This document shows positions 17,364 to 55,427 of a stretch of DNA of 64,000 nucleotides, one piece after another. The number at the start of each line of letters is the position of its first letter. Position 1 is the stretch's first letter. This DNA is from a virus (Duplodnaviria > Heunggongvirae > Uroviricota > Caudoviricetes), in the IMG/VR virus record IMGVR_UViG_3300045450_000050, positions 71,343 through 135,342 of that record; one strand, written 5' to 3'. The notes under the pieces are model-generated. The model ran no database searches and was not told where the DNA came from. It was given only the letters and a program-made list of their open reading frames with translations. The position numbers and the translations under genes are program-made.

Positions 17364-17407
17364 GTCAGATTCCGTTCTCCGGGGGAAGTCTCGTGCCTCC
17401 CGATGGA

Positions 17408-17441
17408 TCTATTCTTGCACGTCACGCGCTAACGCACAAGC
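17408..17441 (-). promoter_or_regulatory. promoter-like motif copy
   Basis: TCTATTCTTGCACGTCACGCGCTAACGCACAAGC (consensus copy). Confidence 0.6.
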
Positions 17442-17447
17442 CCCAGA

Positions 17448-17870: not shown

Positions 17871-18928
17871 TTCAGGTTCGCTTCCACGTACTCGGCTGCG
17901 AGACGTGCTGCCTCGGCAATGGTGATGGTGTCTGCGTCGGACTCGCCATAGTTGGGGCTCTTCATGTCCACGCTCTTGCCATGTTCGTGCATGTACGCGC
18001 TAAACCCCTCTGCCAGTCCGCCCAGGGCCTCGCTGTAGCTGATCTCGGCTTGGGCAAGCTCTTCGTTCGCTGCGTTCAGATTCGCGAGGGTTGCCGCTGC
18101 TGCCTTGTCAGCTTCCAGATAGGACGTGAGGCTGCGCTTTAGTGCTGCGTACGCGCTAGCCGCTGCCATCAGGTCGGCTTCGCTCGGGATCTCGAAGTCG
18201 GCTGCGCCCCTGAGGGCTCGTACACGGCCTGCGTTGATCTCCAGGGCCTCCAGGGCACCGGCGAGGCTATCTACGGCCTCAGACAGGCTCCTGGCGCGTT
18301 CTATGGCACCTTCCGCCTCGCCCAGGGCTGCTACTTGCGCTTTCAGGTCGCGATACCCCGGCACTTTTGCCTTGATCACTTCCAGATCCGCGCTGCGTGT
18401 GGTGAGCGTGCGCTTGTGGGCATCCTTGCGCCTGTTGCTCTCCCGCGCACCCTCTAGGAGCACCGTGGCATTCGTGAGGGCTCCCAGGGTCCGCGCGATC
18501 TCTGGTGCGCTCTCATCGAGCAAGTAGGGCTTGTCGAATTGCGATGCGAACGCGAGCGGGTCCTTCGGGTCGATCCCCAGGAACGCGCTCACCTCCACAG
18601 GCACTTCCCCGCCCAGCTTGCTGTACGTCGTCTGCGGTGCAAGCGGGTGGCTCGGGTCGTTCGGGATGACCACATAGCTGTTGTCGCTCGTGCCCTTGCC
18701 CCTGGTGAGCGTCACGCTCCCGTGTGTGGTGCGAAGCGTGATAGCTGCCGTCCGCTCCCCCTGACTGATGAACGCTGCGCCGCGTCGGTTCGCAATCGCT
18801 GTGTTCAGCGCTCGGGTGAGTGCGCTCTTGCCGCTGGACGACGGGCCGACGATCACGGTAAACGGTGCCAGGTCCAAGCTCACGTCATGCAGAGACTGGA
18901 AGTTCCGTACGTGGATGTGCTCGATCAC
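17867..18928 (-). CDS. SMC/SbcC/RecF-like ABC ATPase head domain protein (truncated, coiled coil)
   Basis: N-terminus MIEHIHVRNFQSLHDVSLDLAPFTVIVGPSSSGKSA (Walker A); long coiled coil; no Walker B or signature segment found. Confidence 0.75.
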   Translation of the reverse strand: MIEHIHVRNFQSLHDVSLDLAPFTVIVGPSSSGKSALTRALNTAIANRRGAAFISQGERTAAITLRTTHGSVTLTRGKGTSDNSYVVIPNDPSHPLAPQTTYSKLGGEVPVEVSAFLGIDPKDPLAFASQFDKPYLLDESAPEIARTLGALTNATVLLEGARESNRRKDAHKRTLTTRSADLEVIKAKVPGYRDLKAQVAALGEAEGAIERARSLSEAVDSLAGALEALEINAGRVRALRGAADFEIPSEADLMAAASAYAALKRSLTSYLEADKAAAATLANLNAANEELAQAEISYSEALGGLAEGFSAYMHEHGKSVDMKSPNYGESDADTITIAEAARLAAEYVEANLK

Positions 18929-19432: not shown

Positions 19433-19765
19433 CTACTTCCAAGGGCACCCGCTCTCATGGTCAACGTCGCTGCGCTCGTGGCAGTAGGCGCACACATTGC
19501 GTCGGCGCTGTTCGATGTAGTCGGTGGGAGGTGTCCCGTACCTGCCCAGGTCATCACTGCCCCAGGCAAGCATGTTGTGATGCTCGACGGCCCACGTGGG
19601 ATTGATCTCGACGTAGCGGCCGCTGCCGTCCCGTTCGATAGCGCGGGAGACAATCTGGGCGTCTTCCTCTCGCCAGAACGGACCCCCTGCGAGTTGGTAG
19701 CCGCTGCCATCCGGATTGATGACGTACAGGTGTGCCCTGCCGGTGCGCTCGGGGTATGTAGCCAT
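19433..19765 (-). CDS. hypothetical protein, C-terminal Cys/His cluster
   Basis: Track ORF; CAYCHERSDVDHESGCP. Confidence 0.7.
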   Translation of the reverse strand: MATYPERTGRAHLYVINPDGSGYQLAGGPFWREEDAQIVSRAIERDGSGRYVEINPTWAVEHHNMLAWGSDDLGRYGTPPTDYIEQRRRNVCAYCHERSDVDHESGCPWK

Positions 19766-19767
19766 GA

Positions 19768-20283
19768 TCAGGACCCCGCGCCCAGCATGGCGAAGATCTC
19801 TTCGCTGGTCTCGTACACGTGCAGGATGCCGCCCGTGGTGAGACTGATGTACGTACTGTTGTCGGCGTCACTCTCCACGGGGGTGAAGCGCGTGATGGTG
19901 AAACGGTGCACGTGCGTGGGCATCTGTCGGCCCACCTCGAACACGGTGATGAAGTCGTGGCGCACACGGGGGGCTGCGGGCGTCGGGGTGGCCCTGACAG
20001 TAGCCCTGAGGTTGTCGAAGTAGTCGCGTGCCCCGGCTGCGTACGCGTTGTATGCCTGGACGCCCACCTCATCGAACAACTCGGTGAGGGCTCCGTACAG
20101 CTCGTCAACGCCGATGTCCTCGCCCTGCACGTACACGTCCTCCCCCGCGTGGGCGGCGAGCGCGTGACGCATGTCATCGATGAGTGCGATGGGGTAGTCC
20201 TCCCACGAGTCGGGGCGGTCGTCCGTGTAGTCACGGAAGCGATTGATGATCAGATTGGTGCTGGCGGGGATCTTGATAGCCAT
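19768..20283 (-). CDS. hypothetical protein (171 aa)
   Basis: Track ORF. Confidence 0.75.
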   Translation of the reverse strand: MAIKIPASTNLIINRFRDYTDDRPDSWEDYPIALIDDMRHALAAHAGEDVYVQGEDIGVDELYGALTELFDEVGVQAYNAYAAGARDYFDNLRATVRATPTPAAPRVRHDFITVFEVGRQMPTHVHRFTITRFTPVESDADNSTYISLTTGGILHVYETSEEIFAMLGAGS

Positions 20284-41781: not shown

Positions 41782-43422
41782 TCACATCTTGGCGAACGCC
41801 GAGATGACCTGGGGAACGGACGAGTCGAAGCCGACCACGTCCAGGGTGCGGGGGTCCTTGGGGTCCGCGACCGAGGACCGCGAGGCGTTGGTCGCCACGA
41901 CGACGAGCTTGGCGTCGATACCCGTTTCCTTGCGGTACTTCGCCAGCTCCTCGTGCGTGTGCGCCGGGCCTGCGTAGGTCTCGTTGTCCGTCATGAGCAC
42001 GAACACGTCGACCTGGATCTTCTGCTCGCGTGCGTAGCGGATCACGCACGACACGTCGGTCATGCGGCCCGTGTGTGCCCGTGCCTCCCACGTTGCCTCC
42101 TGGAGGGTCATGCCCTTTCGGATGCTCAGCGGGTAGGTGTACGCGTCGAAGCCGATGGTGTGGACCTCGGGCTCGATGTTCGCGATAACGCAGGCCATGG
42201 CCGCGCCACCCTCGGACGCCGTCATGTTGGGCACGTCAGCGATGCGAGCACCCATCGATCCGGAGGTGTCCACGCCCACGAGGTAGCGCAGACCCGTGGG
42301 CTCTGCGAACTTGAACGCGAGATGGAACGCCTCGTCGAGCGCGGCGATGATGCGCTGGTTGGGCACCCAAGTGGCCGTCGAGCGGGCCTGGGTGGAGTGA
42401 CCGAGCGCGTACGCCTTCTGGGCGAGCAGGATCGTCATCGGGTGCAGGCGCGCCTTGGCCAGCGCGTCACGATCCGTCAGACGGTCCACCACGAGCTGCG
42501 TCTTGCCTCCGAGGGGAACGATGACACCGATGCGCGTCAGACGCGAGAGCTGGCGGAGCAGCGCGCCCAGGGGCACGTTGTTGTTCTCCAGCAGGGCCGT
42601 CCAGACCGCCTCGTTGTTCAGCGCCGACGAGGGCAGCATCTCCCACGACAGGCCGTACGTCTTGATGATCGAGATCAGCTCGGACACCTTGGCGCTGGGC
42701 GTGTTCTCCCACTCCAGGGCCTTCAGGTTGCCGGTGACAGCCTTGGGCAGCAGCACGCGCGAGGGGTCTTCGACGCGGCCGAGCGTGTAGTCCATGAGGT
42801 GGCGGAACAGCTCGTCCTCGCTCGACTTGGTGGGCCGAGCGAGCTTGATCAGGTCGGCGTGCGACCATCCCTCGCGGTTCTTGTACTTCGTGAGCTGGTA
42901 GCCGAGGCGCTCGATGTCCTTGCCCTCGTACCAGCGCTTGAACGCCTTGCGGGCACCCATACCGAAGCCCTTGCCTCCGCGAAGGTTCTTCAGGAACTCG
43001 GCGAACATGAACAGCGTCGTGCCCGTACGGCAGACCTTGTCGACCTGCTGGTACGCGTAGCTGCGCGCGGCGTCGTCCTCGGTGGTCGCGATGACCAGAG
43101 CGAGCGCGAAGATGGCGGGGTCCTGCTTGGGAGCGCGGCCCTCGACCGAGACCGAGACGATGAGATCGATCAGTTCGAACACCTTGTCGGTGCGAGCCAC
43201 GTCCTCGATGTCGCTGACGCGCTTCAGCGTCAGCTTCTGGCCGGTCTGGTAGAAGCCGCTCTCGGCACCGAGGATGAGGAAGCGCTTGATGGCTTCCATC
43301 TTGCCGACCTTGAAGACGTAGCCGCCCGCGGCGTTCTTCTTCTGCTCGGGTGCGGCCTTCTTCGTGCCGGGCGTGGTCTTCTGAACGGGTGCTCCGACCG
43401 TGCGGAGAGTGCTGTTACCCAT
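41782..43422 (-). CDS. rsr: Ro60-like TROVE-domain protein with C-terminal vWA/MIDAS domain
   Basis: 546 aa after trimming the track ORF to ATG 43422 (AAAGGA RBS); N-terminal GGYVFKVGKMEAIKRFLILGAESGFYQ, C-terminal MIDAS VGVDTSGSMG; adjacent Y-RNA-like array. Confidence 0.8.
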   Translation of the reverse strand: MGNSTLRTVGAPVQKTTPGTKKAAPEQKKNAAGGYVFKVGKMEAIKRFLILGAESGFYQTGQKLTLKRVSDIEDVARTDKVFELIDLIVSVSVEGRAPKQDPAIFALALVIATTEDDAARSYAYQQVDKVCRTGTTLFMFAEFLKNLRGGKGFGMGARKAFKRWYEGKDIERLGYQLTKYKNREGWSHADLIKLARPTKSSEDELFRHLMDYTLGRVEDPSRVLLPKAVTGNLKALEWENTPSAKVSELISIIKTYGLSWEMLPSSALNNEAVWTALLENNNVPLGALLRQLSRLTRIGVIVPLGGKTQLVVDRLTDRDALAKARLHPMTILLAQKAYALGHSTQARSTATWVPNQRIIAALDEAFHLAFKFAEPTGLRYLVGVDTSGSMGARIADVPNMTASEGGAAMACVIANIEPEVHTIGFDAYTYPLSIRKGMTLQEATWEARAHTGRMTDVSCVIRYAREQKIQVDVFVLMTDNETYAGPAHTHEELAKYRKETGIDAKLVVVATNASRSSVADPKDPRTLDVVGFDSSVPQVISAFAKM

Positions 43423-43504: not shown

Positions 43505-43737
43505 GGGGAATCCAGACAGGAGATCGCTGCGCGAGGATCTAGGCAGTGATAACGCGGAGCTAACAGCCTGGAAAGTTTAGTGGGCAGACAGGAAACGCAA
43601 TCGGGAATGGTTGTTTGAGTTTGAGTCAAATTGATAACCCGGAAGCAGCAGCCTGCTCATGTGAAGTTGTAAGGCCCGACAGGAAACGACCCGGGAGAGT
43701 ATCACCACAAGATAACCCGGACCAGACAGCCTGGCCT
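43505..43737 (-). ncRNA. three tandem short Y-RNA-like stem modules (no tRNA-like domain)
   Basis: Each starts CAGGCUG-N-(C/G)GGUUAUC and ends CCUGUCUG, with complementary 5' and 3' arms. Confidence 0.4.
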
Positions 43738-43774
43738 TTGTGAATGAGAGAGCTTTGACCCTCTCTCACCCGAG

Positions 43775-43918
43775 AAAAATAATGTCAGACAGGAAGGCGA
43801 ACCTCGCGTTTAGGCGCTCTGCCGATTGAGCTATACCGGATTGCTCCGGCACTGGGACTCGAACCCAGAACATCCCGCTTAGAAGGCGATAACGAGATTC
43901 AGGCAGCCTGACATCTTC
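43775..43918 (-). ncRNA. Y-RNA-like ncRNA with circularly permuted tRNA-like domain (module 2)
   Basis: Minus strand: T-arm CUGGG-UUCGAGU-CCCAG, 7-bp acceptor-like stem UGCCGGA/UCCGGUA closed by GCAA loop, D-arm GCUC-AAUCGGCA-GAGC; 5' and 3' ends pair in a long imperfect stem. Confidence 0.6.
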
Positions 43919-43930
43919 TTCTGTTGTGTT

Positions 43931-43964
43931 CTGATTATTGCACGACTCGCGCTAACGAGTCAAG
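43931..43964 (-). promoter_or_regulatory. promoter-like motif copy inside the Y-RNA locus
   Basis: CTGATTATTGCACGACTCGCGCTAACGAGTCAAG. Confidence 0.5.
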
Positions 43965-44110
43965 TAGTACCGCAGACAGGGGGCGAGTTCGGAGATTTTA
44001 CGCTGCTCTACCAACTGAGCTACCCCCCGATGTGGTCGGGGGACCTGGACTCGAACCAGGGACCAACGGCTCCGGATGCGATAACCGAGTCTCTTCAGCC
44101 TGCGGAAGTC
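43945..44110 (-). ncRNA. Y-RNA-like ncRNA with circularly permuted tRNA-like domain (module 1)
   Basis: T-arm CCUGG-UUCGAGU-CCAGG, acceptor-like stem UCCCCCG/CGGGGGG closed by 7-nt loop, D-arm GCUC-AGUUGGUA-GAGC, flanking complementary arms. Confidence 0.55.
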
Positions 44111-47862: not shown

Positions 47863-47963
47863 GGGTCGGTCCTCCAGGGGACATGCCGAACAAGGGAGTA
47901 TCGGCACAGGGAGTATCGGCCTGGCATGTGAACGTGCGGGTGCTCGATATACGAGACTTGCTG

Positions 47964-48036
47964 TGGAAACGGGGAGACTCGAACTCCCGACATCCTGCTT
48001 GCAAAACAGGCGCTCTACCAACTGAGCTACGCCCCC
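47964..48036 (-). tRNA. tRNA-Ala(UGC)
   Basis: Cloverleaf by eye; G3:U70; anticodon loop UUUGCAA. Confidence 0.75.
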
Positions 48037-48124
48037 ATGGGTGATGCTGAAGTGAGTCACCGATCAGTTCGAGAGTCCGGTTATCTACGAGAGGGCCCCT
48101 CCGGGCGTCCCACTCACTTCTGCG

Positions 48125-48197
48125 TGGCCAGGGCTGGACTTGAACCAGCGACCCCCGTCTTATCAGGACGGTGCTCTACCTGCTGAGCTACATGACC
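48125..48197 (-). tRNA. tRNA-Ile(GAU)
   Basis: Anticodon loop CUGAUAA; one acceptor mismatch. Confidence 0.65.
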
Positions 48198-48198
48198 G

Positions 48199-48278
48199 TG
48201 GAGAGGCAGGCGGGAATCGAACCCGCGTTCTCATCCGCTACAGGTGTCCGGGTTAGAACTCCGGCCTGATACTGCCCC
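48199..48278 (-). tRNA. atypical tRNA-like gene with encoded CCA (possible Arg(UCU)); aberrant D-arm region
   Basis: Canonical T-arm GCGGG-UUCGAUU-CCCGC, 7-bp acceptor stem and CCA; anticodon-like loop GUUCUAA; no standard D-arm. Confidence 0.35.
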
Positions 48279-48293
48279 GTGATTCTGAAATTG

Positions 48294-48363
48294 AAGCGCT
48301 AGCGGGAGTCGAGCCCGCAACCAAGACTTTGCAGGTCCTGTTCGCCTACCCGGTCATAGCGCC
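48294..48363 (-). tRNA. tRNA-Cys(GCA)
   Basis: Anticodon loop CUGCAAA. Confidence 0.6.
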
Positions 48364-48364
48364 G

Positions 48365-48436
48365 TAGGCCCCCCGGGGATCGAACCCGAGACCCCTGGAT
48401 TAAAAGTCCGGTGCTCTGCCACTGAGCTAGAGGCCC
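48365..48436 (-). tRNA. tRNA-Lys(UUU)
   Basis: Anticodon loop CUUUUAA. Confidence 0.7.
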
Positions 48437-48437
48437 G

Positions 48438-48508
48438 CACCGGAAGCTGGATTCGAACCAACGTGAACGGCTCCAAAGGCCGTCGTCCTGCCACTAAACG
48501 ATTCCGGT
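48438..48508 (-). tRNA. tRNA-Gln(UUG)
   Basis: Anticodon loop CUUUGGA; A1:U72. Confidence 0.65.
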
Positions 48509-48512
48509 AAAG

Positions 48513-48584
48513 CACCCCATCCTGGTTACGATCCAAGGACTTCTGCTCCAGAGGCAGACGTGTTGCCGATTACACCAACGGGGT
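48513..48584 (-). tRNA. tRNA-Gln(CUG)
   Basis: Anticodon loop CUCUGGA; T-loop AUCGUAA. Confidence 0.65.
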
Positions 48585-48657
48585 ATAGCTCTTTGTCGCC
48601 AGGTGAGCAATGCCTGGAGGGGACCTATCAACCCCTCGCCAGTCGTGCGCGCAACGT

Positions 48658-48728
48658 GCCCCACGCAGGTATCGAACCCGCGACCTCCAGTTCCGGAAAC
48701 TGGCGCTCTTCCACTGAGCTAGAAGGGC
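48658..48728 (-). tRNA. tRNA-Arg(CCG)
   Basis: Anticodon loop UUCCGGA. Confidence 0.65.
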
Positions 48729-48792
48729 AAAGAAGGTCCGGGGTGCTACGAATGTGGCCGAAGCCTAGTCAATGGATTGTCGAACCTTCTGG

Positions 48793-48864
48793 TGCCCTCG
48801 GCAGGAGTCGAACCTACATCCCTGGTTCCGTAGACCAGTGTCGTGTCCGTTGGACGACGAGGGC
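48793..48864 (-). tRNA. tRNA-Arg(ACG)
   Basis: Anticodon loop CUACGGA. Confidence 0.75.
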
Positions 48865-48928
48865 GTCGATGGTGGGTCATCACCCTGTGTGGGACTCGTC
48901 GTAGGGGCCCCTACCCTCTTATGTTGCG

Positions 48929-49001
48929 CTCCCCGAGCTGGACTCGAACCAACGACCCTGCGGTTAACAGCCGCGCACTCTACCAACTGAGCTATCGGGG
49001 A
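48929..49001 (-). tRNA. tRNA-Asn(GUU)
   Basis: Anticodon loop CUGUUAA. Confidence 0.75.
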
Positions 49002-49096
49002 ATACGATCAGTTCACGCCACGCGACTTCCGAGCCGGAATCGAACCGACTCAGAGGGGGTCTCGAACCCCATTCTGATCAGAGCCACCAGGCTCTT

Positions 49097-49169
49097 GTGG
49101 GCCGTGAGGGACTCGAACCCCCGCGCATCTCCGTGTAAAGGAGCAGCTCTGCCGCTGAGCTAACGGTCC
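49097..49169 (-). tRNA. tRNA-Val(UAC)
   Basis: Anticodon loop UUUACAC; A3-C70 mismatch. Confidence 0.65.
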
Positions 49170-49240
49170 ATGTGTCGCGCTACCCGTCCCCATGGGCCAG
49201 GTCTGCATTCCCTTGATGCGCGACTACCAAGGTTCCAGCG

Positions 49241-49314
49241 TGCCGACGACAGGAATCGAACCCGCGTCCTCCTTATTACAAGTAAGGTGCTCGGCCAGCG
49301 TGAGCTACATCGGC
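49241..49314 (-). tRNA. tRNA-Thr(UGU)
   Basis: Anticodon loop CUUGUAA. Confidence 0.7.
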
Positions 49315-49379
49315 GTGCGAGGCGGCATGATTTGTGACCTTTGCGCTTCTCTCCGGGACGGTCAGGCGGAGACCTCTTG

Positions 49380-49494
49380 TGTGCGTGACAGACGGGGAGC
49401 GAGTCCTGGGGTGCCCACCAATCGGGCGTATGACCTAGCGGCCACAGGTGGAGTCGAACCATCGATAACCAGAAGCTCTTCAGCCTGTCGTGCG
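49380..49494 (-). ncRNA. Y-RNA-like ncRNA with permuted tRNA-like domain (module 6) inside the tRNA cluster
   Basis: 5' GACAGGCUGAAGAGCUUCUGGUUAUCG matches the rsr-proximal modules; T-arm GAUGG-UUCGACU-CCACC, acceptor-like UGUGGCC/GGUCAUA closed by GCUA, D-arm GCCC-GAUUGGU-GGGC. Confidence 0.5.
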
Positions 49495-49568
49495 TGCAGT
49501 GAACGGGGTCCGAACCCGTGACCTCCTCGTTGGCAACGAGGTGCTCTGCCAGATTGAGCTACCACTAC
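49495..49568 (-). tRNA. tRNA-Gly(GCC)
   Basis: Anticodon loop UUGCCAA. Confidence 0.7.
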
Positions 49569-49658
49569 GGAGTGTGGGACGGGCTCCAACTTCGCCCTTC
49601 CTGAGGCCCACACGGCCCCAACGGATTTCGGATCGCGATCCAGGCATTCCTACCTTCG

Positions 49659-49732
49659 AGAGGTATACGAGACTCGAACTCGTTCTATTCCACTTTGGAA
49701 GAGTGGTGCCGCACCATATCGGCATATACCCC
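49659..49732 (-). tRNA. tRNA-Gly(UCC)
   Basis: Anticodon loop CUUCCAA. Confidence 0.7.
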
Positions 49733-49788
49733 AGAAGAGTCTCGACACCGCTAAACGCAGTCGTCACCACTTGCAATGTCGGACCCCG

Positions 49789-49860
49789 TGCTCCCCCGGA
49801 ATTTCGAAATCCGGACCCTCCGGTTAAGAGCCGGATGCTCTGCCTCTGAGCTAGAGGAGC
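49789..49860 (-). tRNA. tRNA-Lys(CUU)
   Basis: Anticodon loop CUCUUAA. Confidence 0.65.
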
Positions 49861-50050
49861 GTTAGGTGGGGCCCAAGCGAGTGCGCTTACTCGCCCGGCC
49901 CCGGAGATTGTCGGATCTCACCCTGCCACACCATTCAGTGGCCTAAACCTGCCCTGTAACCCAAGGCAGGATTATGGGCCAGACTCTGCGTCTGATGACA
50001 GCCAGGATCTCGCCTGGTCACAAACGTTGGGCTGACGACCCTCGGTGACT

Positions 50051-50084
50051 CGATTAAAGCATGTCACGCGCTAACGCGCAACTC
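50051..50084 (-). promoter_or_regulatory. promoter-like motif copy upstream of the main tRNA cluster
   Basis: CGATTAAAGCATGTCACGCGCTAACGCGCAACTC. Confidence 0.5.
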
Positions 50085-50085
50085 G

Positions 50086-50171
50086 CGGAAGAAGGAGGGC
50101 ACGATCCCCACACCGTTGCCGGTGCCTCCGGTTAGCAACCGGGCTACAGGACCCCCCGTAGATCGTCTTCC
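50086..50171 (-). tRNA. tRNA-Ser(GCU), class II, atypical T-loop
   Basis: Anticodon loop UUGCUAA; variable arm CACCG-GCAA-CGGUG; T-loop AUCGUGC. Confidence 0.5.
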
Positions 50172-50175
50172 ATGG

Positions 50176-50259
50176 CGGAGAGAGGAGGGCACGATCCCCA
50201 CACCTTGCAGTGCTGCACGCTTTCCAAGCGTGAGTCGGGACCTCCCGATCTTCACTCTC
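50176..50259 (-). tRNA. tRNA-Ser(GGA), class II, atypical T-loop
   Basis: Anticodon loop UUGGAAA; shares the GGAGGGCACGAUCCCCACACC segment with the neighbouring Ser tRNA. Confidence 0.5.
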
Positions 50260-50275
50260 CATGCATGAAGACTCG

Positions 50276-50363
50276 GCGGAAGGTGGGAGGGTCGAACTCC
50301 CACGCCCTTTCGAGCAAGCACTTTTCGAGAATGCCGCCGCCGCCAACTATCGGCTGGACCTTC
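50276..50363 (-). tRNA. tRNA-Ser(CGA), class II
   Basis: Anticodon loop CUCGAAA; variable arm closed by GAAA; T-arm GGGAG-UUCGACC-CUCCC. Confidence 0.6.
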
Positions 50364-50574
50364 CGCCAAACCTTCATGCCTCTGTGGAATTAGAAAAGCC
50401 CCGGACTCTTCGAGTCTGGGGCTGTCCGTTGCTCAGCTTTCGCTGGCAGGTCCTATCGCAGGACAGCCCTATGTACCGATGACGGCATTTGCCGTCCCGG
50501 TCTTGGACTGTCGCGAGCTGAGGAACATGTTGATCACCGTACATGCTCCTCAGCTCACGTGCAACTCATCGCGA

Positions 50575-52707
50575 TCAGACCGTGTCCACGGCCAGGACAG
50601 CGAACGCGTTCCAGCGACCTGTGGTGTCGCTGTTGATGCGCGAGAACCCGGCGAAGCCCGTGGCGTTCGTGACACCGGTGTTGGTGATGTTGGTGATTAC
50701 CGTGCCGACATCGGTCGCGCTCGTGGCCTTGACGATGGAGATCGCCGTGCCCTTCATGCGAAGGCCTACCCAGTCGCCTACCGCGAACGTGCCTGCGGGG
50801 GCAGTCGCAATCGACGTAGTTCCGTTCGCCAGGTATGCCGACCCGTCACTGCGAAGGTAGAGCCGGTACTGCGTGGCTCCGGAAGAGGTCACCGTGGAGC
50901 GGCGTGCATCGATGGTGTAGAGCGTCGTCCCGGACGCCGTAGGCATGACAGCGATCTGACCACGTGCCTCGTAGTCGGCCTGGCCCACGGCGAGGAACTG
51001 ACCACCCGTGACTCCGGTCGGGGCGAGGGTGTTGTCGGTGATCTGCCAGGCAGCGGCGTTCTCCTGCCACGAGATTGCCGAACCACCGAACGCGCGGTCG
51101 GTCGCCGAGGAACCGACCGTGGTCGAGTTCGCGCGGTCGAACGAGTCGGAGTACAGCACGTTCATCGACCCGCCGACAGGAGCAGCAGACACCGTGTAGG
51201 CCAGCGTCTTGCTGTTGTTGCCCGTGCTGTTGGTAGCCGTGAACGTGACGTTGCCCGTACCTGCCGTCGTCGGCTTTCCAGAGATGACGCCAGCGCTGGA
51301 GATGGACAGGCCAGCGGGAAGGCCCGACGCGGTCACAGTCGATGTGTCGCCCGTGTACGTGATCGTCTGGGAGAAGTCCACGCCCACGGTCATCGAGTTC
51401 AGGCTGGTCGTGGTGATCGTCGGAGCCGTGCCGGTAGGCGGTGTAGTCGCCGCGCCAGCCGCCACGAGAGCGCCGCCCAGGAAGCTCGTGCGCAGGATGT
51501 CCGCCATGAAGTCATGGCCCTGGTCGTTCATGTGGATCTCGTCGGTGTCGATGTAGTCCCACGGGTCTGCCCCGGCCGCGCCCGTGACGCCCTGGCGGGC
51601 CCAGTCGTCGGAGTTGTCCGTGACCACCACGTTGGTAGCTGCTGCGGCAATCTCCTTCAGGGCGGTGAGGTAGTCCGCCCATGGAGCCACGCGGTTGGTC
51701 AATGCGGCGCTGTCGAAGCGGGGGTAGGTGTGGATCAGGACGTGGACGTGCTGTACGCCGATGGCAGCATCGAGTGCCGCGATCTCGTTCTGGAGGTTGC
51801 TCTTGTACGTGGCCACGGGCACGCCGTTGCCGTAGTCGTTCGCACCGATCATGTGCACGAGCACGCGCGGGTTCAGCGCAGCGATCTGGTTGCGCGTTGT
51901 CGAGCTGATGTACGGCGTGGCACCGTTCTGGTTGCCAGAACGCGAACCAGAGATACCCGCGTTCACACCGAAGATGCCTGCGCCCGAAGGGGCCGACGAC
52001 ACAGCCTGAGCGAGCGTCTGCACGCCCGTCGGGTGCGATCCAGAAGGGAGGGGGTAGGCCGCACGGATGAATGCCATGGTCTTGTTCACGTAGCGGTTCT
52101 CAGCCGCGCTGGCGTTGTTGCCTGCGGTCGACGAAGAGCCCAGCCACACGATGGTGACCGGGGACGAGGTCAGGCGCTTGGACATTGCACCTCGGAAGAT
52201 GCTGATGGCGTCAGCGGTTGTGTCCACCGACCCGCCACCGCTACCAGCAGGCCCGGCTGGTCCCTGGATGCCCTGCGGACCTGTAGCCCCAGTCGCTCCC
52301 GTCGCTCCGGTGTCGCCCTTCGGTCCCGTTGCCCCTGTTGCTCCGGTGTCGCCCTTGGGTCCCTGAGGACCTGTTGCTCCGGTGTCGCCCTTCGGTCCCT
52401 GAGGTCCGACTGTTCCCGACCCGGACCCGGACCCGGCTGGTCCCTGGATGCCCTGTGGTCCCTGGGGTCCTGTCGCTCCGGTGTCCCCCTTGGGTCCTGT
52501 TGCTCCCGTGGCCCCGGCAGCGCCAGTGTCACCCTTCACTCCCTGGGCTCCGGCAGCGCCAGTGTCCCCCTTGGGTCCCTGAACGCCCTGGATGCCCTGA
52601 GGCCCCTGAGGGCCGGTGGCTCCCGTAGCTCCGGTGTCGCCCTTGGGCCCCTGTGGTCCAATCGAACCAGACCCATCACCCGAAACAGGTACGCGTGTAA
52701 AAGGCAT
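50575..52707 (-). CDS. tail fibre/minor tail protein with N-terminal collagen-like Gly-X-Y repeats and SGNH/GDSL-type hydrolase domain
   Basis: 710 aa; ~55 G-X-Y triplets; SGNH blocks [28 protein letters not shown]; beta-rich C-terminus. Confidence 0.85.
52170..52650 (-). repeat. collagen-like Gly-X-Y triplet repeats (coding, within the tail fibre gene)
   Basis: Repeated GGxCCxxxxGGxxCC nucleotide periodicity encoding [13 protein letters not shown]. Confidence 0.8.
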
Positions 52708-52711
52708 CTGC

Positions 52712-52954
52712 TTATCCGATCTCGATCACACGGACATCCGTGGCAGCTTGGGTGGAGACGACGTAGATGTCATCGAGTGAGCCCGATGTGGCGAACTCCA
52801 TGATCATCTGAGGCATAAGTTCGAGGCCGGTGTCTGGAGACACCGTGCCCTGAGTATCGATGTAAATCGTTCCCGGCCCTCGGTTTTGAATGACGGGACG
52901 AGCGCGACCACTCGACACGACCTTCTGCGGAGTTGTCCCTACGATCATGCGCAT
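52712..52954 (-). CDS. hypothetical tail-associated protein (80 aa)
   Basis: Track ORF. Confidence 0.65.
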
Positions 52955-52957
52955 GAG

Positions 52958-53509
52958 CTATGCCTCCTGAACCCAGAGTTCGTAGCCGCCAGATCCGTTC
53001 GACTTGTACCACAGCGCCGGTCCCGAGGTTGTGGGCGCGACAGTGCCTCCCACGAAGACCTGCTGCGGAGCAGTGATGGGCTGGGGCGTGACGTTGCCTC
53101 CACCGGACACGGGCACGAGAAGCGCGATGTCCTGTGCTGAACTGCTCGGCACCGCGATGTCGAGCTGGGGGAAATCGACGATCTGACCGTTCAAGGACAG
53201 CCGGAACGTCACACGGTAGACCCAGCCCGTAGGCGAGGTTGGTCCGTTCGTGGCGACCAGATACACACCCTTGACGCCGTTGAGCGAGAGGTCTCCCGCG
53301 GCGTCGAGCGTGGTCACGATAGGCGTAGGCGCGATGATCGTAGGCGGGGTCGAGCCCAGAACCTTCACGGGCCCGACGAGCGGAGTGAACGTGACGGTTC
53401 CCTCCATGGGCAGCACGTCAGGGTACTCGCCGGAGTCCCCGCTGTCGGCAACGATGGCTGCGAAACGTCCGGTCACCCGTCCGTACGCCAGTCCTGGCAT
53501 GTCAGCCAT
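52958..53509 (-). CDS. minor tail-like protein (183 aa)
   Basis: Track ORF; beta-rich, Pro/Thr-rich. Confidence 0.7.
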   Translation of the reverse strand: MADMPGLAYGRVTGRFAAIVADSGDSGEYPDVLPMEGTVTFTPLVGPVKVLGSTPPTIIAPTPIVTTLDAAGDLSLNGVKGVYLVATNGPTSPTGWVYRVTFRLSLNGQIVDFPQLDIAVPSSSAQDIALLVPVSGGGNVTPQPITAPQQVFVGGTVAPTTSGPALWYKSNGSGGYELWVQEA

Positions 53510-53554
53510 AGGGGCTCCTCTGTCAGGCCTACCTCAATATCGGGAGTATCGGAC

Positions 53555-53869
53555 TTAGGACTTCCGTCGCCGCGCTAGCCGAACGATTCCCGTCGTCACC
53601 AGGACGATGATGCCGACAGCGAGGAAGCCCACGATGTACGGCGTGAGCGGGGCGACATGATGCAGCGCCGACTCTTCGTTGGGGAAGATGCCCGGCGAAT
53701 CAGGACGGGGCCAGTGGTGGTCTGTGGGCGCGTGAGACACTTCCTGGCTAGTCCCTGCGGCCTTGTGCATGAGAGTCGTCGGGGAACCCGCATGCGCCGT
53801 CACCGAGCCCGCGAGCGCGAGGGAGATGCCGAGAAGAGATCCCAGCACCATGTTGGTGACGGCTCTCAT
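53555..53869 (-). CDS. secreted/membrane-anchored protein (signal peptide + C-terminal TM, RRRKS tail)
   Basis: Track ORF 53555..54049 trimmed to ATG 53869 because its 5' part overlaps tRNA genes. Confidence 0.55.
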   Translation of the reverse strand: MRAVTNMVLGSLLGISLALAGSVTAHAGSPTTLMHKAAGTSQEVSHAPTDHHWPRPDSPGIFPNEESALHHVAPLTPYIVGFLAVGIIVLVTTGIVRLARRRKS

Positions 53870-53912
53870 GTCCTGAGTATCGGACTTCAGTCCGCATGCG
53901 ACAGAATACGAA

Positions 53913-53989
53913 GTGGTAGCGCTCCAGGGACTCGAACCCTGACTGGCGTGCACCTCATGCACGTGCCTCTTCCATTGGGCTAGAGCGCC
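53913..53989 (-). tRNA. tRNA with anticodon GAG (Leu?), class I shape, CCA encoded
   Basis: Anticodon loop AUGAGGU; short variable loop, unusual for Leu. Confidence 0.5.
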
Positions 53990-54063
53990 GTACCCCTCCC
54001 CGGATTCGAACCGGGAACCTCCGCGCCCTGAACGCGTCGCCTCTACCATTTGGGCTAGAAGGG
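53990..54063 (-). tRNA. tRNA with anticodon CAG (Leu?), class I shape
   Basis: Anticodon loop UUCAGGG. Confidence 0.45.
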
Positions 54064-54076
54064 CTCACTGTGTTGC

Positions 54077-54150
54077 GTGGACAACGCCGGAGTCGAACCG
54101 GTCAACCTCTCGTGTTTCAAACGAGCGCTCTACCAACTGAGCTTGAAGTC
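54077..54150 (-). tRNA. tRNA-Phe(GAA), two acceptor-stem mismatches (possible pseudo-tRNA)
   Basis: Anticodon loop UUGAAAC; U5-U68 and U6-U67 mismatches. Confidence 0.5.
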
Positions 54151-54152
54151 CG

Positions 54153-54237
54153 TGGTGCCAGAGGAGGGAGTCGAACCCTCACAGCCGAAGCGGGTGATTT
54201 ACAGTCACTTGCCCTCGCCAATGGGACGGTGCCCTGA
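54153..54237 (-). tRNA. tRNA-Tyr(GUA), class II, CCA encoded
   Basis: Anticodon loop CUGUAAA; variable arm with UUCG loop. Confidence 0.55.
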
Positions 54238-54257
54238 CATATGTATTCAGTTGTTGC

Positions 54258-54330
54258 GTAGAGCGTGCGGGATTCGAACCCGCGCTGTTGGCGTGAAAAA
54301 CCAATGACCTAGGCCGCTAATCGAACGCTC
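54258..54330 (-). tRNA. tRNA-Glu(UUC)
   Basis: Anticodon loop UUUUCAC. Confidence 0.55.
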
Positions 54331-54331
54331 C

Positions 54332-54402
54332 GTAGCCCACGAGGGTTTCGATCCCTCGACATCAGATTGAGAATCTGACGTGTTCCCATTACACCAGTGG
54401 GC
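54332..54402 (-). tRNA. tRNA-Glu(CUC)
   Basis: Anticodon loop UUCUCAA; T-loop AUCGAAA. Confidence 0.65.
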
Positions 54403-54418
54403 CATGTTCAGTTGTTGC

Positions 54419-54491
54419 GCGAACCTGACGGGTTTCGATCCCGCTACCTTCCGCTCGACAGGCGGATGCTCTCCCAATTGAGCTACAGGTC
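54419..54491 (-). tRNA. tRNA-Asp(GUC)
   Basis: Anticodon loop CUGUCGA; T-loop AUCGAAA. Confidence 0.7.
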
Positions 54492-54569
54492 CATGGGGTG
54501 GATGACGGGTACTGCCCCCGCTACAAGCAGTTCCACAAACTGCTGCCTCGCTTTTCGGCCTCAAACACC

Positions 54570-54641
54570 GTACGGATGGGGAGGATCGAACTCCCGGTCT
54601 CCTGATCCCAAATCAGGCGGCATACCGCTTGCCTACACCCG
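54570..54641 (-). tRNA. tRNA-Pro(UGG)
   Basis: Anticodon loop UUUGGGA; A1:U72. Confidence 0.6.
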
Positions 54642-54656
54642 TATATTGAATTGTCC

Positions 54657-54707
54657 TGTACGCGAAGACGACCCCCCGGATATCTCCGAGGGGTCGTCTT
54701 CGCGTAC
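54657..54707. terminator. 18-bp perfect hairpin at the edge of the tRNA cluster (terminator or processing signal)
   Basis: GTACGCGAAGACGACCCC-N15-GGGGTCGTCTTCGCGTAC. Confidence 0.4.
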
Positions 54708-54777
54708 GCGCGCTTCAGACCCCCCGGATGGGCTCCAGGAGGTAATCGAAGTGCTCGAACGTGTTCATGCTCTGACC

Positions 54778-54927
54778 TTATGACGCGAGTAGCTGCGGTG
54801 TCAAGTCAACATCCGCATGAGCTGTCTCCTGATGCTCCAGGAGGGCCCACAGACCCGATGGCTGGCCGTGCAGAGTGCCTTCGTCGATGAAGACCTCGCC
54901 GCACCAGCAGGCGCGCTCTGTGCCCAT
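54778..54927 (-). CDS. small Cys-containing hypothetical protein (49 aa)
   Basis: Trimmed from track ORF 54778..55032. Confidence 0.35.
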   Translation of the reverse strand: MGTERACWCGEVFIDEGTLHGQPSGLWALLEHQETAHADVDLTPQLLAS

Positions 54928-54931
54928 GGGC

Positions 54932-55138
54932 TCAGATGTTGGGGGTGGTGTGAGTCGAGATGAAGTGGTCCTCCAGGAGATCCACTGCGGCGCTCTTGGT
55001 GCCTGCGACCTGAAGGGTGTCGCAGAGCGCACACTGAGCCTCCCAGCCCAGCTCCTCGTCCTTGGTGACGGTGCCGAGATCTACGTCGACCTCTCCCACC
55101 TCGGCGTGGACGGTTCCCTGGCGATTGACGCTGACCAT
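54932..55138 (-). CDS. small hypothetical protein (68 aa)
   Basis: AAGGGAG RBS before ATG 55138. Confidence 0.5.
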   Translation of the reverse strand: MVSVNRQGTVHAEVGEVDVDLGTVTKDEELGWEAQCALCDTLQVAGTKSAAVDLLEDHFISTHTTPNI

Positions 55139-55210
55139 GATGGCTCCCTTGGCTCGGGAGGAGTATCGGCGCATGCAGAAGGGCCCCAGATCTCTCTGAG
55201 GCCCTTCGTT

Positions 55211-55283
55211 GCAGGGGGTGCAGGATTTGAACCTACGCCTATCGGGTTGGAGCCGAGCGTCTTTGGCCGCTGAACTAACCCCC
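55211..55283 (-). tRNA. tRNA-Trp(CCA)
   Basis: Anticodon loop CUCCAAC; perfect acceptor GGGGGGU/ACCCCCU. Confidence 0.65.
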
Positions 55284-55334
55284 CAGATGGCACCGTGGTT
55301 CGATCCGACGAAAGATGACCCCCACGGTGCTCGT

Positions 55335-55416
55335 AGCCGTCTCGGGACTCGAACCCGAACGAGGCGAACCCCTACGCATTTTGAGTGCGCTCTGTCTACC
55401 CATTCCAGCAGACGGC
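55335..55416 (-). tRNA. tRNA-Leu(CAA), class II
   Basis: Anticodon loop CUCAAAA; variable arm with UUCG loop; perfect acceptor stem. Confidence 0.65.
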
Positions 55417-55427
55417 CGATGAAGACG

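What the first reader, a model, noticed from the sequence alone, without database searches (positions are those of the whole stretch)
49380..49494. Additional Y-RNA-like permuted-tRNA module embedded in the tRNA cluster
Between tRNA-Thr and tRNA-Gly(GCC) lies a module whose 5' end (GACAGGCUGAAGAGCUUCUGGUUAUCG) is nearly identical to the rsr-proximal modules. It carries the same permuted arrangement: T-arm GAUGG-UUCGACU-CCACC, acceptor-like stem closed by GCUA, D-arm GCCC-GAUUGGU-GGGC. It sits in the tRNA transcription unit about 6 kb from rsr. This suggests Y-RNA paralogs processed together with tRNAs, for example by RNase P or RNase Z, or a tRNA-derived origin for these elements.
Basis: seen in the sequence. 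Interest (0 to 1): 0.6.

Follow-up and report, generated by a model that had tools for sequence, protein, structure and literature searches.

The report
Y RNA gene inside phage tRNA array
Between two tRNA genes of an uncultured Microbacterium-type phage lies a real, conserved 103-nt gene for a tRNA-mimicking "Y RNA", the small-RNA partner of the phage's Ro60/Rsr protein, placed about 6 kb from that protein's gene where tRNA-processing enzymes probably cut it out.

Summary
Window 49489-49387 (minus strand, 103 nt) is a discrete module between tRNA-Gly(GCC) and tRNA-Thr(UGU), 5,964 nt upstream of rsr.

- **Shared stem motifs.** It carries the same 5' (AGGCUGAAGAG...GGUUAUC) and 3' (CCCCGUCUGUC) stem motifs as the five rsr-proximal Y modules. 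That is 6 motif hits in the window against 0.08 expected.
- **tRNA-like head.** It encloses a permuted T-arm / 7-bp acceptor-like hairpin / D-arm.
- **Leave-out test.** A covariance model built only from rsr-adjacent modules of five other phages finds it as the window's best hit (72 bits, E 3e-18).
- **Covariation.** Eight family members covary in all five helices: 24 of 32 pairs change on both sides, and 88% of cells pair against 37-47% when partners are slid.
- **Synteny.** Orthologs sit at the same Gly->Thr position in phage Magritte and one metagenomic contig, only 5-6 nt from the flanking tRNAs.

It is a divergent "compact" YrlA-type Y RNA: no V arm, degenerate D arm, A·C in the T stem. 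It scores below Rfam's YrlA threshold (14.5 against 69 bits). Rsr binding and excision by RNase P/Z are inferred, not shown. I rate it a new variant of a known kind, of moderate interest.

The parts
49387..49489 (-). Whole compact Y-RNA (YrlA-type) module, 103 nt
   Evidence: R2 (leave-out model) 72.1 bits, E 2.8e-18, model positions 1-106. R1 102 bits. Energy of the consensus structure is -38.1 kcal/mol against an MFE of -39.2.
49483..49489 (-). P1 5' strand GACAGGC (terminal stem)
   Evidence: Pairs with 49393-49387. 98% of cells are paired in 8 homologs and 3 of 7 pairs change on both sides. In L014 the whole helix is replaced with pairing kept.
49387..49393 (-). P1 3' strand GUCUGUC
49476..49486 (-). 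AGGCUGAAGAG: putative Rsr-binding 5'-strand motif, a variant of GNCGAAG
   Evidence: Identical 11-mer in rsr-proximal module M1 (44101-44091). The signature AGGCYGAAG..GTTATC..GGTTCRA lies beside rsr on the same strand in 51 of 51 rsr-containing bacterial loci. The motif's role in Ro60 recognition is taken from Chen et al. 2014 (PMC4201824).
49469..49478 (-). P2 (GAG) + bulged C + P3 (UUCUGG), 5' strand
   Evidence: Pairs with 49409-49401 (CCAGGA-CUC). Helix 2 has 7 of 9 pairs with changes on both sides. RNAalifold recovers it de novo.
49401..49409 (-). P3/P2 3' strand CCAGGACUC
49464..49468 (-). UUAUC, the equivalent of the tRNA variable loop, invariant in the family
   Evidence: Invariant GTTATC columns in alignments A1 and A4. 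It is followed directly by the T-arm, with no V stem-loop.
49447..49463 (-). T-arm mimic GAUGG-UUCGACU-CCACC (A·C at the second pair)
   Evidence: 4 of 5 pairs covary. A non-standard pair in the T stem is seen in the family: the middle pair is non-standard in 6 of 8 sequences.
49429..49446 (-). Acceptor-stem mimic, 7-bp hairpin UGUGGCC-GCUA-GGUCAUA
   Evidence: All 7 pairs change on both sides among homologs.
49413..49427 (-). D-arm mimic GCCC-GAUUGGU-GGGC (GG retained, A14/A21 equivalents missing)
   Evidence: 3 of 4 pairs change on both sides, 75% of cells paired.
49490..49494 (-). 5-nt spacer CGCAC between the tRNA-Gly discriminator and the module
   Evidence: CGAAC at the same place in Magritte and L092. 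It resembles the recurrent tRNA trailer CGCAAC of this array.
49495..49568 (-). tRNA-Gly(GCC), upstream neighbour, no encoded CCA
49381..49386 (-). 6-nt spacer ACGCAC after the module
   Evidence: Corresponds to GGUCAC (Magritte) and GUCCAC (L092), which abut tRNA-Thr directly.
49315..49380 (-). 66-nt insertion between the spacer and tRNA-Thr. It contains a 62-nt element conserved in other actinophages just upstream of tRNAs.
   Evidence: 95% identity to Zooman. Core conserved in Rhodococcus phage Dorin. No Rfam match.
49241..49314 (-). tRNA-Thr(UGU), downstream neighbour
43511..44104 (-). Five rsr-proximal Y modules: M1 44104-43971, M2 43912-43784, and simple modules at 43735-43674, 43658-43583 and 43572-43511
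41782..43422 (-). rsr (Ro60 ortholog, 546 aa)
   Evidence: Pfam TROVE + vWA_Ro60. The translation is identical to P0001.

Best explanation
The module is a sixth Y-RNA gene of this phage. It is a compact, tRNA-mimicking (YrlA-type) Y RNA that has been relocated from the rsr-adjacent Y-RNA cluster into the tRNA array.

**Shown here.**
- It is homologous to Y modules that lie directly upstream of rsr in related phages.
- Its 5' and 3' ends form a long stem (P1, an internal loop carrying AGGCUGAAG, P2, a bulge, P3). The stem sequence is the one shared by all rsr-linked modules.
- The stem carries a circularly permuted tRNA head (T-arm, closed acceptor-like hairpin, D-arm).
- All helices are kept by compensatory changes.
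- The gene occupies the same tRNA-Gly(GCC) -> tRNA-Thr slot in three phages.

**Inferred.**
- It is transcribed as part of the tRNA precursor.
- Its 5' end is set when the 3' end of tRNA-Gly is matured. No CCA is encoded, so this means RNase Z-type cleavage after the discriminator, or trimming.
- Its 3' end is set by RNase P cleavage at the 5' end of the next tRNA. In this window, 3'-exonucleolytic trimming of the extra 72 nt would also be needed.
- The mature RNA binds the phage Rsr ring through the conserved stem.
- It uses its tRNA-like head as a tether or gate, for example recruiting host PNPase into a RYPER-like RNA-degradation machine, as described for D. radiodurans, S. Typhimurium and Thermus phage phiLo.
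For: **Homology**
- Leave-out model R2, built from five rsr-adjacent modules of phages whose Rsr is at most 52% identical, ranks the candidate first in the window (72.1 bits, E 2.8e-18). That is above rsr-proximal M1 (45.8), M2 (37.7) and the simple modules (29, 25, 23). Tandem-tRNA false positives reach only about 20 bits.
- The motif count is 6 against 0.08 expected.
- The 11-mer AGGCUGAAGAG is identical to that of M1.

**Structure**
- Across 8 homologs, 87.9% of cells pair against 69.6% in shuffles (0 of 500 reach the observed value) and 37-47% when partners are slid.
- 24 of 32 pairs change on both sides.
- RNAalifold on an unfitted MAFFT alignment of 9 sequences recovers P1, P2, P3, the T stem and the D stem, with 19 of 24 pairs compensatory.
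- The consensus fold lies within 1.1 kcal/mol of the MFE.
- Un-permuted constructs of two orthologs and of M1 are accepted by ARAGORN as cloverleaf tRNAs.

**Context**
- Syntenic orthologs are at Magritte L002 7471-7585 and L092 4360-4463, with a 5-nt spacer after tRNA-Gly and a 6-nt spacer before tRNA-Thr.
- In Cece a Y module likewise ends 6 nt before tRNA-Ala.
- The compact class lies next to rsr in L094-L098 and L014. There the Gly->Thr gap was checked only in L094, where it is an 87-nt gap with no module. This fits relocation of one paralog.
- No promoter- or terminator-like site flanks the module.
- 22 of the 24 tRNAs lack CCA.

**Family knowledge**
- YrlA architecture, the GNCGAAG Ro60 motif, and RNase P cleavage with CCA addition for a 7-bp acceptor mimic: PMC4201824.
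- Phage Ro60 binding phage Y RNAs and host PNPase: PMC12135203.
Against: - There are no expression, end-mapping or Rsr-binding data.
- The Rfam YrlA model scores the module only 14.5 bits against a gathering score of 69.
- Single-sequence folding is no better than shuffles (z = -1.1), and the MFE does not form the T-arm.
- The head is a poorer tRNA mimic than M1 or M2. It has an A·C pair in the T stem, one linker nucleotide instead of two before the D stem, and a D loop without the A14 equivalent. Its un-permuted form is not called a tRNA by ARAGORN.
- The literal motif GNCGAA has U in place of C.
- The closest relative by Rsr with a complete array (L091, 62%) lacks the module, so it is dispensable.
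- In this window the 3' end is 72 nt from the next RNase P site, not 6 nt.
Confidence: 0.72

Rival explanations
1. Two-piece Y RNA. The module is a Y RNA, but its 7-bp acceptor-like hairpin is itself cut by RNase P at GCUA|GGUCAUA and the new 3' end receives CCA, as in M. smegmatis YrlA. The functional species would then be a nicked, possibly chargeable tRNA mimic held together by the Rsr-bound stem.
For: The window copy, L092 and L094/L098 have exactly 7 bp stacked on a 5-bp T stem. Chen et al. [quoted passage not shown] The L092 loop reads GCCACAU, that is discriminator plus CCA.
Against: The hairpin is not held at 7 bp in the family. Magritte, L095, L096 and L097 have extended or bulged hairpins of 10-12 bp, some with GNRA loops. 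The window loop is GCUA, with no CCA. The T stem carries an A·C mismatch.
Confidence: 0.12
2. Rsr-independent element. The module is a tRNA-like structure in the array that acts in cis as a processing spacer or insulator, or in trans as a decoy for tRNA-binding host factors such as modification enzymes or tRNA-targeting defence nucleases. The Y-type stem would be only inherited baggage.
For: It lies 6 kb from rsr and inside the tRNA array. The phage already has five Y modules next to rsr. L091 does without it.
Against: The parts that are most conserved are the Y-type stem strands (AGGCYG..., GGUUAUC, CCNGUCU), not the tRNA-like head, whose sequences vary freely. The same compact class sits directly upstream of rsr in six other phages. 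There is no anticodon loop to attract anticodon nucleases.
Confidence: 0.1
3. Chance or decayed tRNA remains. On this reading the T-arm of one dead tRNA and the D-arm of the next (the 'tandem tRNA' artefact that Chen et al. filtered out), or a permuted tRNA gene that matures into a real tRNA.
For: The element lies in a tRNA array. YrlA-type models do give weak hits across real tandem tRNAs here, for example 48598-48704 at 20-25 bits.
Against: The score is 72-102 bits against about 20 for tandem tRNAs. The acceptor mimic is one closed hairpin with a 4-nt loop. The long stem carrying the Y motif covaries. The element is conserved at the same site in three phages. There is no anticodon arm, and ARAGORN and the Rfam tRNA model do not call it.
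Confidence: 0.02

Closest known systems
YrlA RNAs (Rfam RF02553; S. Typhimurium and M. smegmatis YrlA; Chen et al. 2014, PMC4201824)
   Same: Ends pair into a stem carrying a GNCGAAG-type 5' motif. The head has T-arm, closed acceptor-like stem and D-arm in that permuted order. It is on the same strand as rsr. The acceptor mimic is 7 bp, as in M. smegmatis.
   Different: There is no V stem-loop between the stem and the T-arm. The motif has U for C. The D arm is degenerate and the T stem has an A·C pair. The Rfam score is 14.5 bits against a gathering score of 69. The gene is 5.96 kb from rsr, outside the 4-kb window used to define the family, and lies between tRNA genes, a context those authors filtered out.
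rsr-adjacent compact Y modules of related uncultured phages (L094-L098, L014) and the rsr-proximal modules M1/M2 of this window
   Same: Direct homologs, at 72 bits with a model built from them. Same stem motifs, and UUAUC followed at once by the T-arm.
   Different: Genomic position: those lie 90-260 nt upstream of rsr, whereas this one and its Magritte and L092 orthologs lie between tRNA-Gly(GCC) and tRNA-Thr.
Thermus phage phiLo Yrl1/Yrl2 with phage Ro60 (PMC12135203), and D. radiodurans Yrn1 in RYPER
   Same: Phage-encoded Y RNAs partnered with a phage Ro60. They have a stem-bulge-stem with a CGAA-type motif. Their proposed role is tethering host PNPase.
   Different: Those are encoded immediately upstream of the Ro60 gene and have been tested biochemically. 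Nothing has been tested here.
Small RNAs released from precursors by tRNA-processing enzymes (MALAT1 mascRNA, gammaherpesvirus tRNA-miRNA units, bacterial tRNA-spacer sRNAs such as 3'ETS-leuZ; from my own knowledge)
   Same: A non-tRNA small RNA placed within a few nucleotides of tRNAs, so that RNase P and RNase Z would define its ends.
   Different: Those RNAs are unrelated in sequence and function. Processing here is inferred only from spacing.
Circularly permuted tRNA genes (Cyanidioschyzon merolae; from my own knowledge)
   Same: The 3' half elements (T-arm, acceptor 3' strand) precede the 5' half elements (acceptor 5' strand, D-arm).
   Different: There is no anticodon arm. The acceptor mimic is closed by a loop. 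The ends form a 16-bp Y-type stem rather than a splice-like junction.

Membership tests
Y RNA (Ro60/Rsr-associated ncRNA) | 5' and 3' ends pair into a long stem interrupted by an internal loop or bulge | tested here: met
   P1 (7 bp), a 4 x 7 internal loop, P2 (3 bp), bulged C, P3 (6 bp). 92-98% of cells pair and 10 of 16 pairs change on both sides. Recovered de novo.
Y RNA (Ro60/Rsr-associated ncRNA) | Physically bound by Ro60/Rsr | not testable with these tools
   Needs RIP or EMSA. Only the shared stem motif argues for it.
Y RNA (Ro60/Rsr-associated ncRNA) | A Ro60 ortholog is encoded in the same genome, on the same strand | tested here: met
   rsr at 43422-41782 (-), TROVE + vWA_Ro60.
YrlA (Chen et al. 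2014) | GNCGAAN0-1G motif near the 5' end | tested here: inconclusive
   The module has GCUGAAG, with U instead of C at position 3. All six Y modules of this window share the U, while relatives L091 and L094-L098 have GCCGAAG or GCCGCUG. Among rsr-linked bacterial hits the U form is a minority, 5 of 66.
YrlA (Chen et al. 2014) | T-arm-like stem-loop with a UUCRA loop | tested here: met
   GAUGG-UUCGACU-CCACC. 4 of 5 pairs covary. One A·C pair.
YrlA (Chen et al. 2014) | Acceptor-stem-like hairpin between the T and D arms | tested here: met
   7 bp, and all 7 pairs change on both sides in the family.
YrlA (Chen et al. 2014) | D-arm-like stem-loop with GG | tested here: met
   GCCC-GAUUGGU-GGGC. 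The stem covaries (G-C to U·G and C-G to U-A). The loop lacks the A14 and A21 equivalents, and the un-permuted form is not accepted by ARAGORN.
YrlA (Chen et al. 2014) | V stem-loop upstream of the T-arm (described as less conserved) | tested here: not met
   UUAUC is followed directly by the T-arm. None of the 66 rsr-linked bacterial hits has a gap of 0-4 nt.
YrlA (Chen et al. 2014) | Encoded within 4 kb of rsr (reporting criterion) | tested here: not met
   5,964 nt from the rsr start codon.
YrlA, Rfam RF02553 | Covariance-model score at or above the gathering score (69 bits) | tested here: not met
   14.5 bits, E 1.9, full-length alignment 1-114. M1 at 43.3 and M2 at 32.4 bits also fail.
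YrlA (Chen et al. 2014) | tRNA-type modifications (Psi55, D), and RNase P or CCA-enzyme recognition | not testable with these tools
   Biochemical.
Compact phage Y-module class (defined here) | Significant match to a model built from rsr-adjacent members only | tested here: met
   72.1 bits, E 2.8e-18, top hit of the window.
tRNA | Contiguous cloverleaf with an anticodon arm | tested here: not met
   Not called by ARAGORN or the Rfam tRNA model. There is no anticodon arm.

The most novel reading that the evidence does not exclude
Placing a Y RNA inside the tRNA precursor is functional coupling, not an accident. On this reading the phage makes an Rsr-Y RNP in step with its tRNAs, with ends cut by RNase P/Z. 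The tRNA-shaped head then directs Rsr, with host PNPase or a repair ligase, to surveillance, repair or selective degradation of tRNAs during infection, for example against host tRNA-cleaving defences. This would give the long-unexplained tRNA-like domain of bacterial Y RNAs a concrete substrate class. It would also support the idea that Y RNAs arose from permuted tRNA genes within tRNA operons.
Probability: 0.15. Interest if true: 0.7.

Novelty: new variant of a known kind. Interest (0 to 1): 0.45.

Why it matters
Bacterial and phage Y RNAs have so far been sought, and defined, only next to rsr. Hits among tRNA genes were deliberately discarded.

- **Where Y RNAs can sit.** This case shows a bona fide Y-RNA paralog sitting inside a tRNA array, conserved there in three phages. 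It is spaced so that RNase Z and RNase P would set its ends.
- **A testable biogenesis route.** That gives a route different from the self-standing rsr-proximal genes, and it can be tested in a cultured phage, Magritte.
- **Surveys under-count.** Y-RNA surveys probably miss copies. The curated Rfam model misses the whole set in this phage group.
- **Annotation errors.** Some annotated phage 'tRNAs', such as Magritte tRNA-Arg(tct), are really Y-RNA heads.
- **Repertoire size.** The count for one phage rises to six Y RNAs of three architectures, which raises the question of why a phage needs so many adaptors for one Ro60 ring.

Tried and rejected
- **Rfam at gathering threshold.** It reports only tRNAs. 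At relaxed threshold over 24 kb the candidate is not listed at all, and it appears only in a 221-nt search at 14.5 bits. Rfam alone would have rejected it.
- **Single-sequence folding.** z = -1.1, and the T-arm is absent from the MFE. This is uninformative; the evidence had to come from comparison.
- **Near and distant BLAST of the module against 50,697 phage records.** Only Magritte matched, by the 5' motif, plus the unrelated 62-nt element in Zooman.
- **Exact-pattern scans.** Scans of IMG/VR and JGI metagenomes for the module's 5' half gave 0, 1 and 6 hits. The IMG/VR hit is a tRNA-Phe(GAA), whose anticodon arm reads GGCUGAAGA; none of the metagenome hits is an ortholog of the module.
- **Rsr-guided IMG/VR loci.** 78 loci were retrieved, all with Rsr at most 42% identical. 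Only L014 yielded a compact module. Useful relatives came instead from the protein search followed by contig look-ups.
- **Un-permuting the head.** This worked for L092, L094 and M1 but not for the window copy.
- **Rfam on bacterial loci carrying the signature.** None reaches the YrlA gathering score, so anchoring was done by rsr adjacency instead.
- **Literature.** Two Y-RNA reviews (PMC10870794, PMC6047535) and the supplement tables of Chen et al. 2014 are not held. I therefore cannot exclude that a tRNA-array Y RNA is mentioned there. Full-text searches found none.
- **Rejected ideas.** A protein-coding reading, because the ORFs at 49160-49613 overlap tRNAs. The tandem-tRNA artefact. A permuted true tRNA.

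Full report
**Setting.** The window is part of a 135-kb metagenomic (JGI) phage contig. Its Ro60 ortholog is identical to P0001. The nearest named relative is Microbacterium phage Magritte, with Rsr 62% identical and syntenic gene order. Everything relevant is on the minus strand, in this order:
- an array of 24 tRNA genes (55417 to 47963);
- an endolysin;
- a Big_7-domain protein;
- five Y-RNA modules (44104 to 43511);
- rsr (43422 to 41782; Pfam TROVE + vWA_Ro60).

**The observation.** Read on the minus strand, 49489-49387 is GACAGGCUGAAGAGCUUCUGGUUAUC-GAUGGUUCGACUCCACC-UGUGGCCGCUAGGUCAUA-C-GCCCGAUUGGUGGGC-ACC-CCAGGACUCGCUCCCCGUCUGUC.
- The module lies between tRNA-Gly(GCC) (49568-49495) and tRNA-Thr(UGU) (49314-49241), 5,964 nt upstream of the rsr start codon.
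- The motif AGGCTG-N4-16-GTTAYC occurs six times in the window against 0.08 expected. Five copies are the rsr-proximal modules and the sixth is this one.
- The 11-mer AGGCUGAAGAG is identical to that of module M1.

**Is it a Y RNA? Curated model.** The Rfam YrlA model (RF02553) aligns the candidate end to end but gives only 14.5 bits (E 1.9 in a 221-nt search; gathering score 69). The rsr-proximal M1 and M2 also miss the threshold, at 43.3 and 32.4 bits. The curated model is therefore too narrow for this phage group, and a lineage-level test was needed.

**Is it a Y RNA? Lineage test.**
- From Rsr homologs I retrieved contigs of related uncultured phages.
- These hold a distinct "compact" class of Y module, in which UUAUC is followed directly by the T-arm.
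- Eight members were found at first and a ninth (L014) later.
- Three lie between tRNA-Gly(GCC) and tRNA-Thr: the window, Magritte L002 7471-7585, and ENA contig L092 4360-4463.
- Six lie 90-260 nt upstream of rsr: L094, L095, L096, L097, L098 and L014.
- A covariance model built only from the five rsr-adjacent modules L094-L098 (model R2; their Rsr is at most 52% identical to the window's) was searched against the whole window.
- The candidate is the best hit (72.1 bits, E 2.8e-18). It scores above M1 (45.8), M2 (37.7) and the three simple modules (29, 25, 23).
- Hits that straddle genuine tandem tRNAs reach only about 20 bits.

**Structure.**
- On the eight-sequence structural alignment, 87.9% of cells form standard pairs. 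Column shuffles give 69.6% (0 of 500 reach the observed value), and sliding the 3' partners gives 37-47%.
- 24 of 32 pairs show changes on both sides, spread over all five helices.
- That alignment was fitted to my structure, so I also ran RNAalifold on a plain MAFFT alignment of nine sequences.
  - It recovers P1, P2, P3, the T stem and the D stem, with 19 of 24 pairs compensatory.
  - In L014 the whole of P1, including the conserved AGGC/GUCU, is replaced with pairing kept.
  - The acceptor-like hairpin is missed there because its length varies.
- In the fitted alignment all seven pairs of that hairpin covary.
- For the window copy the consensus fold (-38.1 kcal/mol) is within 1.1 kcal/mol of the MFE.
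- Single-sequence stability is unremarkable (z = -1.1), and the T-arm, weakened by an A·C pair, is not in the MFE.
- A non-standard pair in the T stem is a family trait: the middle pair is non-standard in 6 of 8 sequences.

**tRNA mimicry.**
- The order T-arm, acceptor 3' strand, loop, acceptor 5' strand, D-arm is a circular permutation of a cloverleaf. The Y stem stands where the anticodon stem would be, which is the YrlA architecture of Chen et al. 2014.
- I un-permuted the sequences and closed P3 with an artificial anticodon loop. ARAGORN then accepts the L092 and L094 orthologs and module M1 as tRNAs, but not the window copy.
- The window copy has a single linker nucleotide before the D stem, a D loop without the A14 equivalent, and the A·C pair. 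Its head is therefore a degenerate mimic.

**The stem motif is rsr-linked in general.**
- 51 of these have an Rsr homolog within the 8-kb stretch, always on the same strand and usually just downstream.
- The U variant used by this phage is a minority there (5 of 66). The compact spacing of 0-4 nt between GUUAUC and the T loop is not seen among rsr-linked bacterial hits.

**Context and likely biogenesis.**
- In Magritte and L092 the module is separated from the tRNA-Gly discriminator by 5 nt (CGAAC) and from tRNA-Thr +1 by 6 nt (GGUCAC, GUCCAC).
- The window has CGCAC on the 5' side. On the 3' side it has ACGCAC followed by a 66-nt insertion.
- In phage Cece, two Y modules lie between tRNA-Ile and tRNA-Ala, and the second ends 6 nt (GUCUAC) before tRNA-Ala.
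- No sigma-70-like promoter or intrinsic terminator flanks the module. A promoter-like site does exist inside the rsr-proximal cluster at 43963-43934.
- Only 2 of the 24 tRNAs encode CCA, and several abut with 0-3 nt between them.
- I therefore infer co-transcription with the tRNAs. The 5' end would be set by maturation of the tRNA-Gly 3' end (RNase Z-type cleavage or trimming). The 3' end would be set by RNase P at the next tRNA, plus exonucleolytic trimming of the insertion in this window.
- This is inference from spacing. No RNA data exist here.

**Evolution.**
- The compact class is next to rsr in the more distant phages. The Gly->Thr gap was examined only in L094, where it is 87 nt with no module.
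- It is in the tRNA array in the window/Magritte/L092 group, which has no compact copy next to rsr.
- L091 (Rsr 62%) has neither.
- One relocation, with loss in L091 or gain after it diverged, is the simplest reading.

**Function.** By analogy only, the conserved stem should bind the phage Rsr, and the head should act as tether or gate.
- Y RNA tethers Rsr to PNPase in D. radiodurans.
- M. smegmatis YrlA, which has a 7-bp acceptor mimic, is cut by RNase P and receives CCA.
- A Thermus phage Ro60 binds two phage Y RNAs and assembles with host PNPase.
- The window copy has exactly 7 bp, so internal RNase P cleavage is possible. However, the hairpin is 10-12 bp in four family members, so this is not a conserved property.

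**Comparison and novelty.**
- It works like, and is homologous to, YrlA-type Y RNAs.
- It fails three literal membership criteria: the Rfam gathering score, the 4-kb distance to rsr, and the V arm.
- It differs from the GNCGAAG motif by one base.
- Chen et al. reported only hits within 4 kb of rsr and discarded hits overlapping tandem tRNAs. Full-text searches found no report of a Y RNA inside a tRNA array.
- Two reviews and the supplement tables of that paper could not be read.
- I rate it a new variant of a known kind: a compact subclass with a new, conserved genomic placement that implies a different maturation route. Interest is moderate.

Noticed in passing
window 49319-49380 (-); L001 (Zooman) 6001-6062; L099 (Dorin) 1501-1548: A roughly 62-nt element lies directly 3' of the Y module and 5 nt upstream of tRNA-Thr. 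It is 95% identical to a stretch of Microbacterium phage Zooman that lies 4 nt upstream of tRNA-Lys(ctt). Its core (CGCCUGACCGUCCCG / AAGnGCAAAGGUC / UGCCGCC) recurs 6 nt upstream of tRNA-Lys(ttt) in Rhodococcus phage Dorin. It may form an H-type pseudoknot (UCUCCG/CGGAGA plus UGACC/GGUCA). It has no Rfam match and its fold is not significant (z = +0.9). In the window it looks like an insertion bounded by CGCAC repeats. Function unknown.
   Followed up: partly
window 43511-44104 (-): Five Y-RNA modules lie in tandem upstream of rsr: two tRNA-like (M1, M2) and three short 'simple' ones. A promoter-like TTGACT-18-(TG)AATAAT sits between M1 and M2 at 43963-43934. With the tRNA-array copy the phage has six Y RNAs of three architectures.
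   Followed up: partly
L002 (Magritte) 11524-11600; L090 3902-3978; L092 9719-9788: The GenBank feature 'tRNA-Arg(tct)' (gene 117) of Magritte lies inside Y module M3 (11530-11657, 45 bits with R2). It is probably a Y-RNA head mis-called as a tRNA. ARAGORN makes similar calls inside Y stems in L090 (Arg-cct) and L092 (Ser-tga).
   Followed up: partly
L092 9680-9809: A Y-type stem (AGCAGGCUGAAG ... CCCUGUCGGCU) encloses a tRNA-like insert in the normal, non-permuted order: D-arm, anticodon-like arm, T-arm. This is a different way of combining a Y stem with a tRNA shape in the same phage group.
   Followed up: no
L010 (Cece) 17325-17934 and 19512-20013: Cece carries Y modules with the canonical GAGCCGAAG motif next to rsr, and also between the endolysin gene, tRNA-Ile and tRNA-Ala. 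One ends 6 nt before tRNA-Ala. So Y modules interleaved with tRNAs are not confined to the window's clade.
   Followed up: partly
L001 (Zooman) 6130-6510 (-): Three spaced repeats of GGGUUUCGAAUACUCUGCUCnCCGC (a T-loop-like core) lie in an unannotated 530-nt gap of the tRNA array. Nature unknown.
   Followed up: no
window 47963-55417 (-): Only 2 of the 24 phage tRNA genes encode CCA. Several tRNAs abut with 0-3 nt (Glu-Glu, Leu-Leu, Gln-Lys-Cys). Many share a 3' trailer C-GCAAC(A), which resembles the CGCAC spacer in front of the Y module.
   Followed up: partly
L003 2478-2551 and several genome loci (e.g. L109, L120, L123): The anticodon arm of tRNA-Phe(GAA) reads GGCUGAAGA. Together with the variable loop and T loop it matches simple Y-RNA 5' patterns, which is a source of false positives. 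The resemblance between the Ro-binding motif and a Phe anticodon loop may or may not be meaningful.
   Followed up: no
L121, L124, L194, L196 (Nostoc and relatives): Cyanobacterial genomes carry two or three tandem copies of the same Y-RNA signature just upstream of rsr. None reaches the Rfam YrlA gathering score, which suggests that the curated family under-detects Y RNAs widely.
   Followed up: partly
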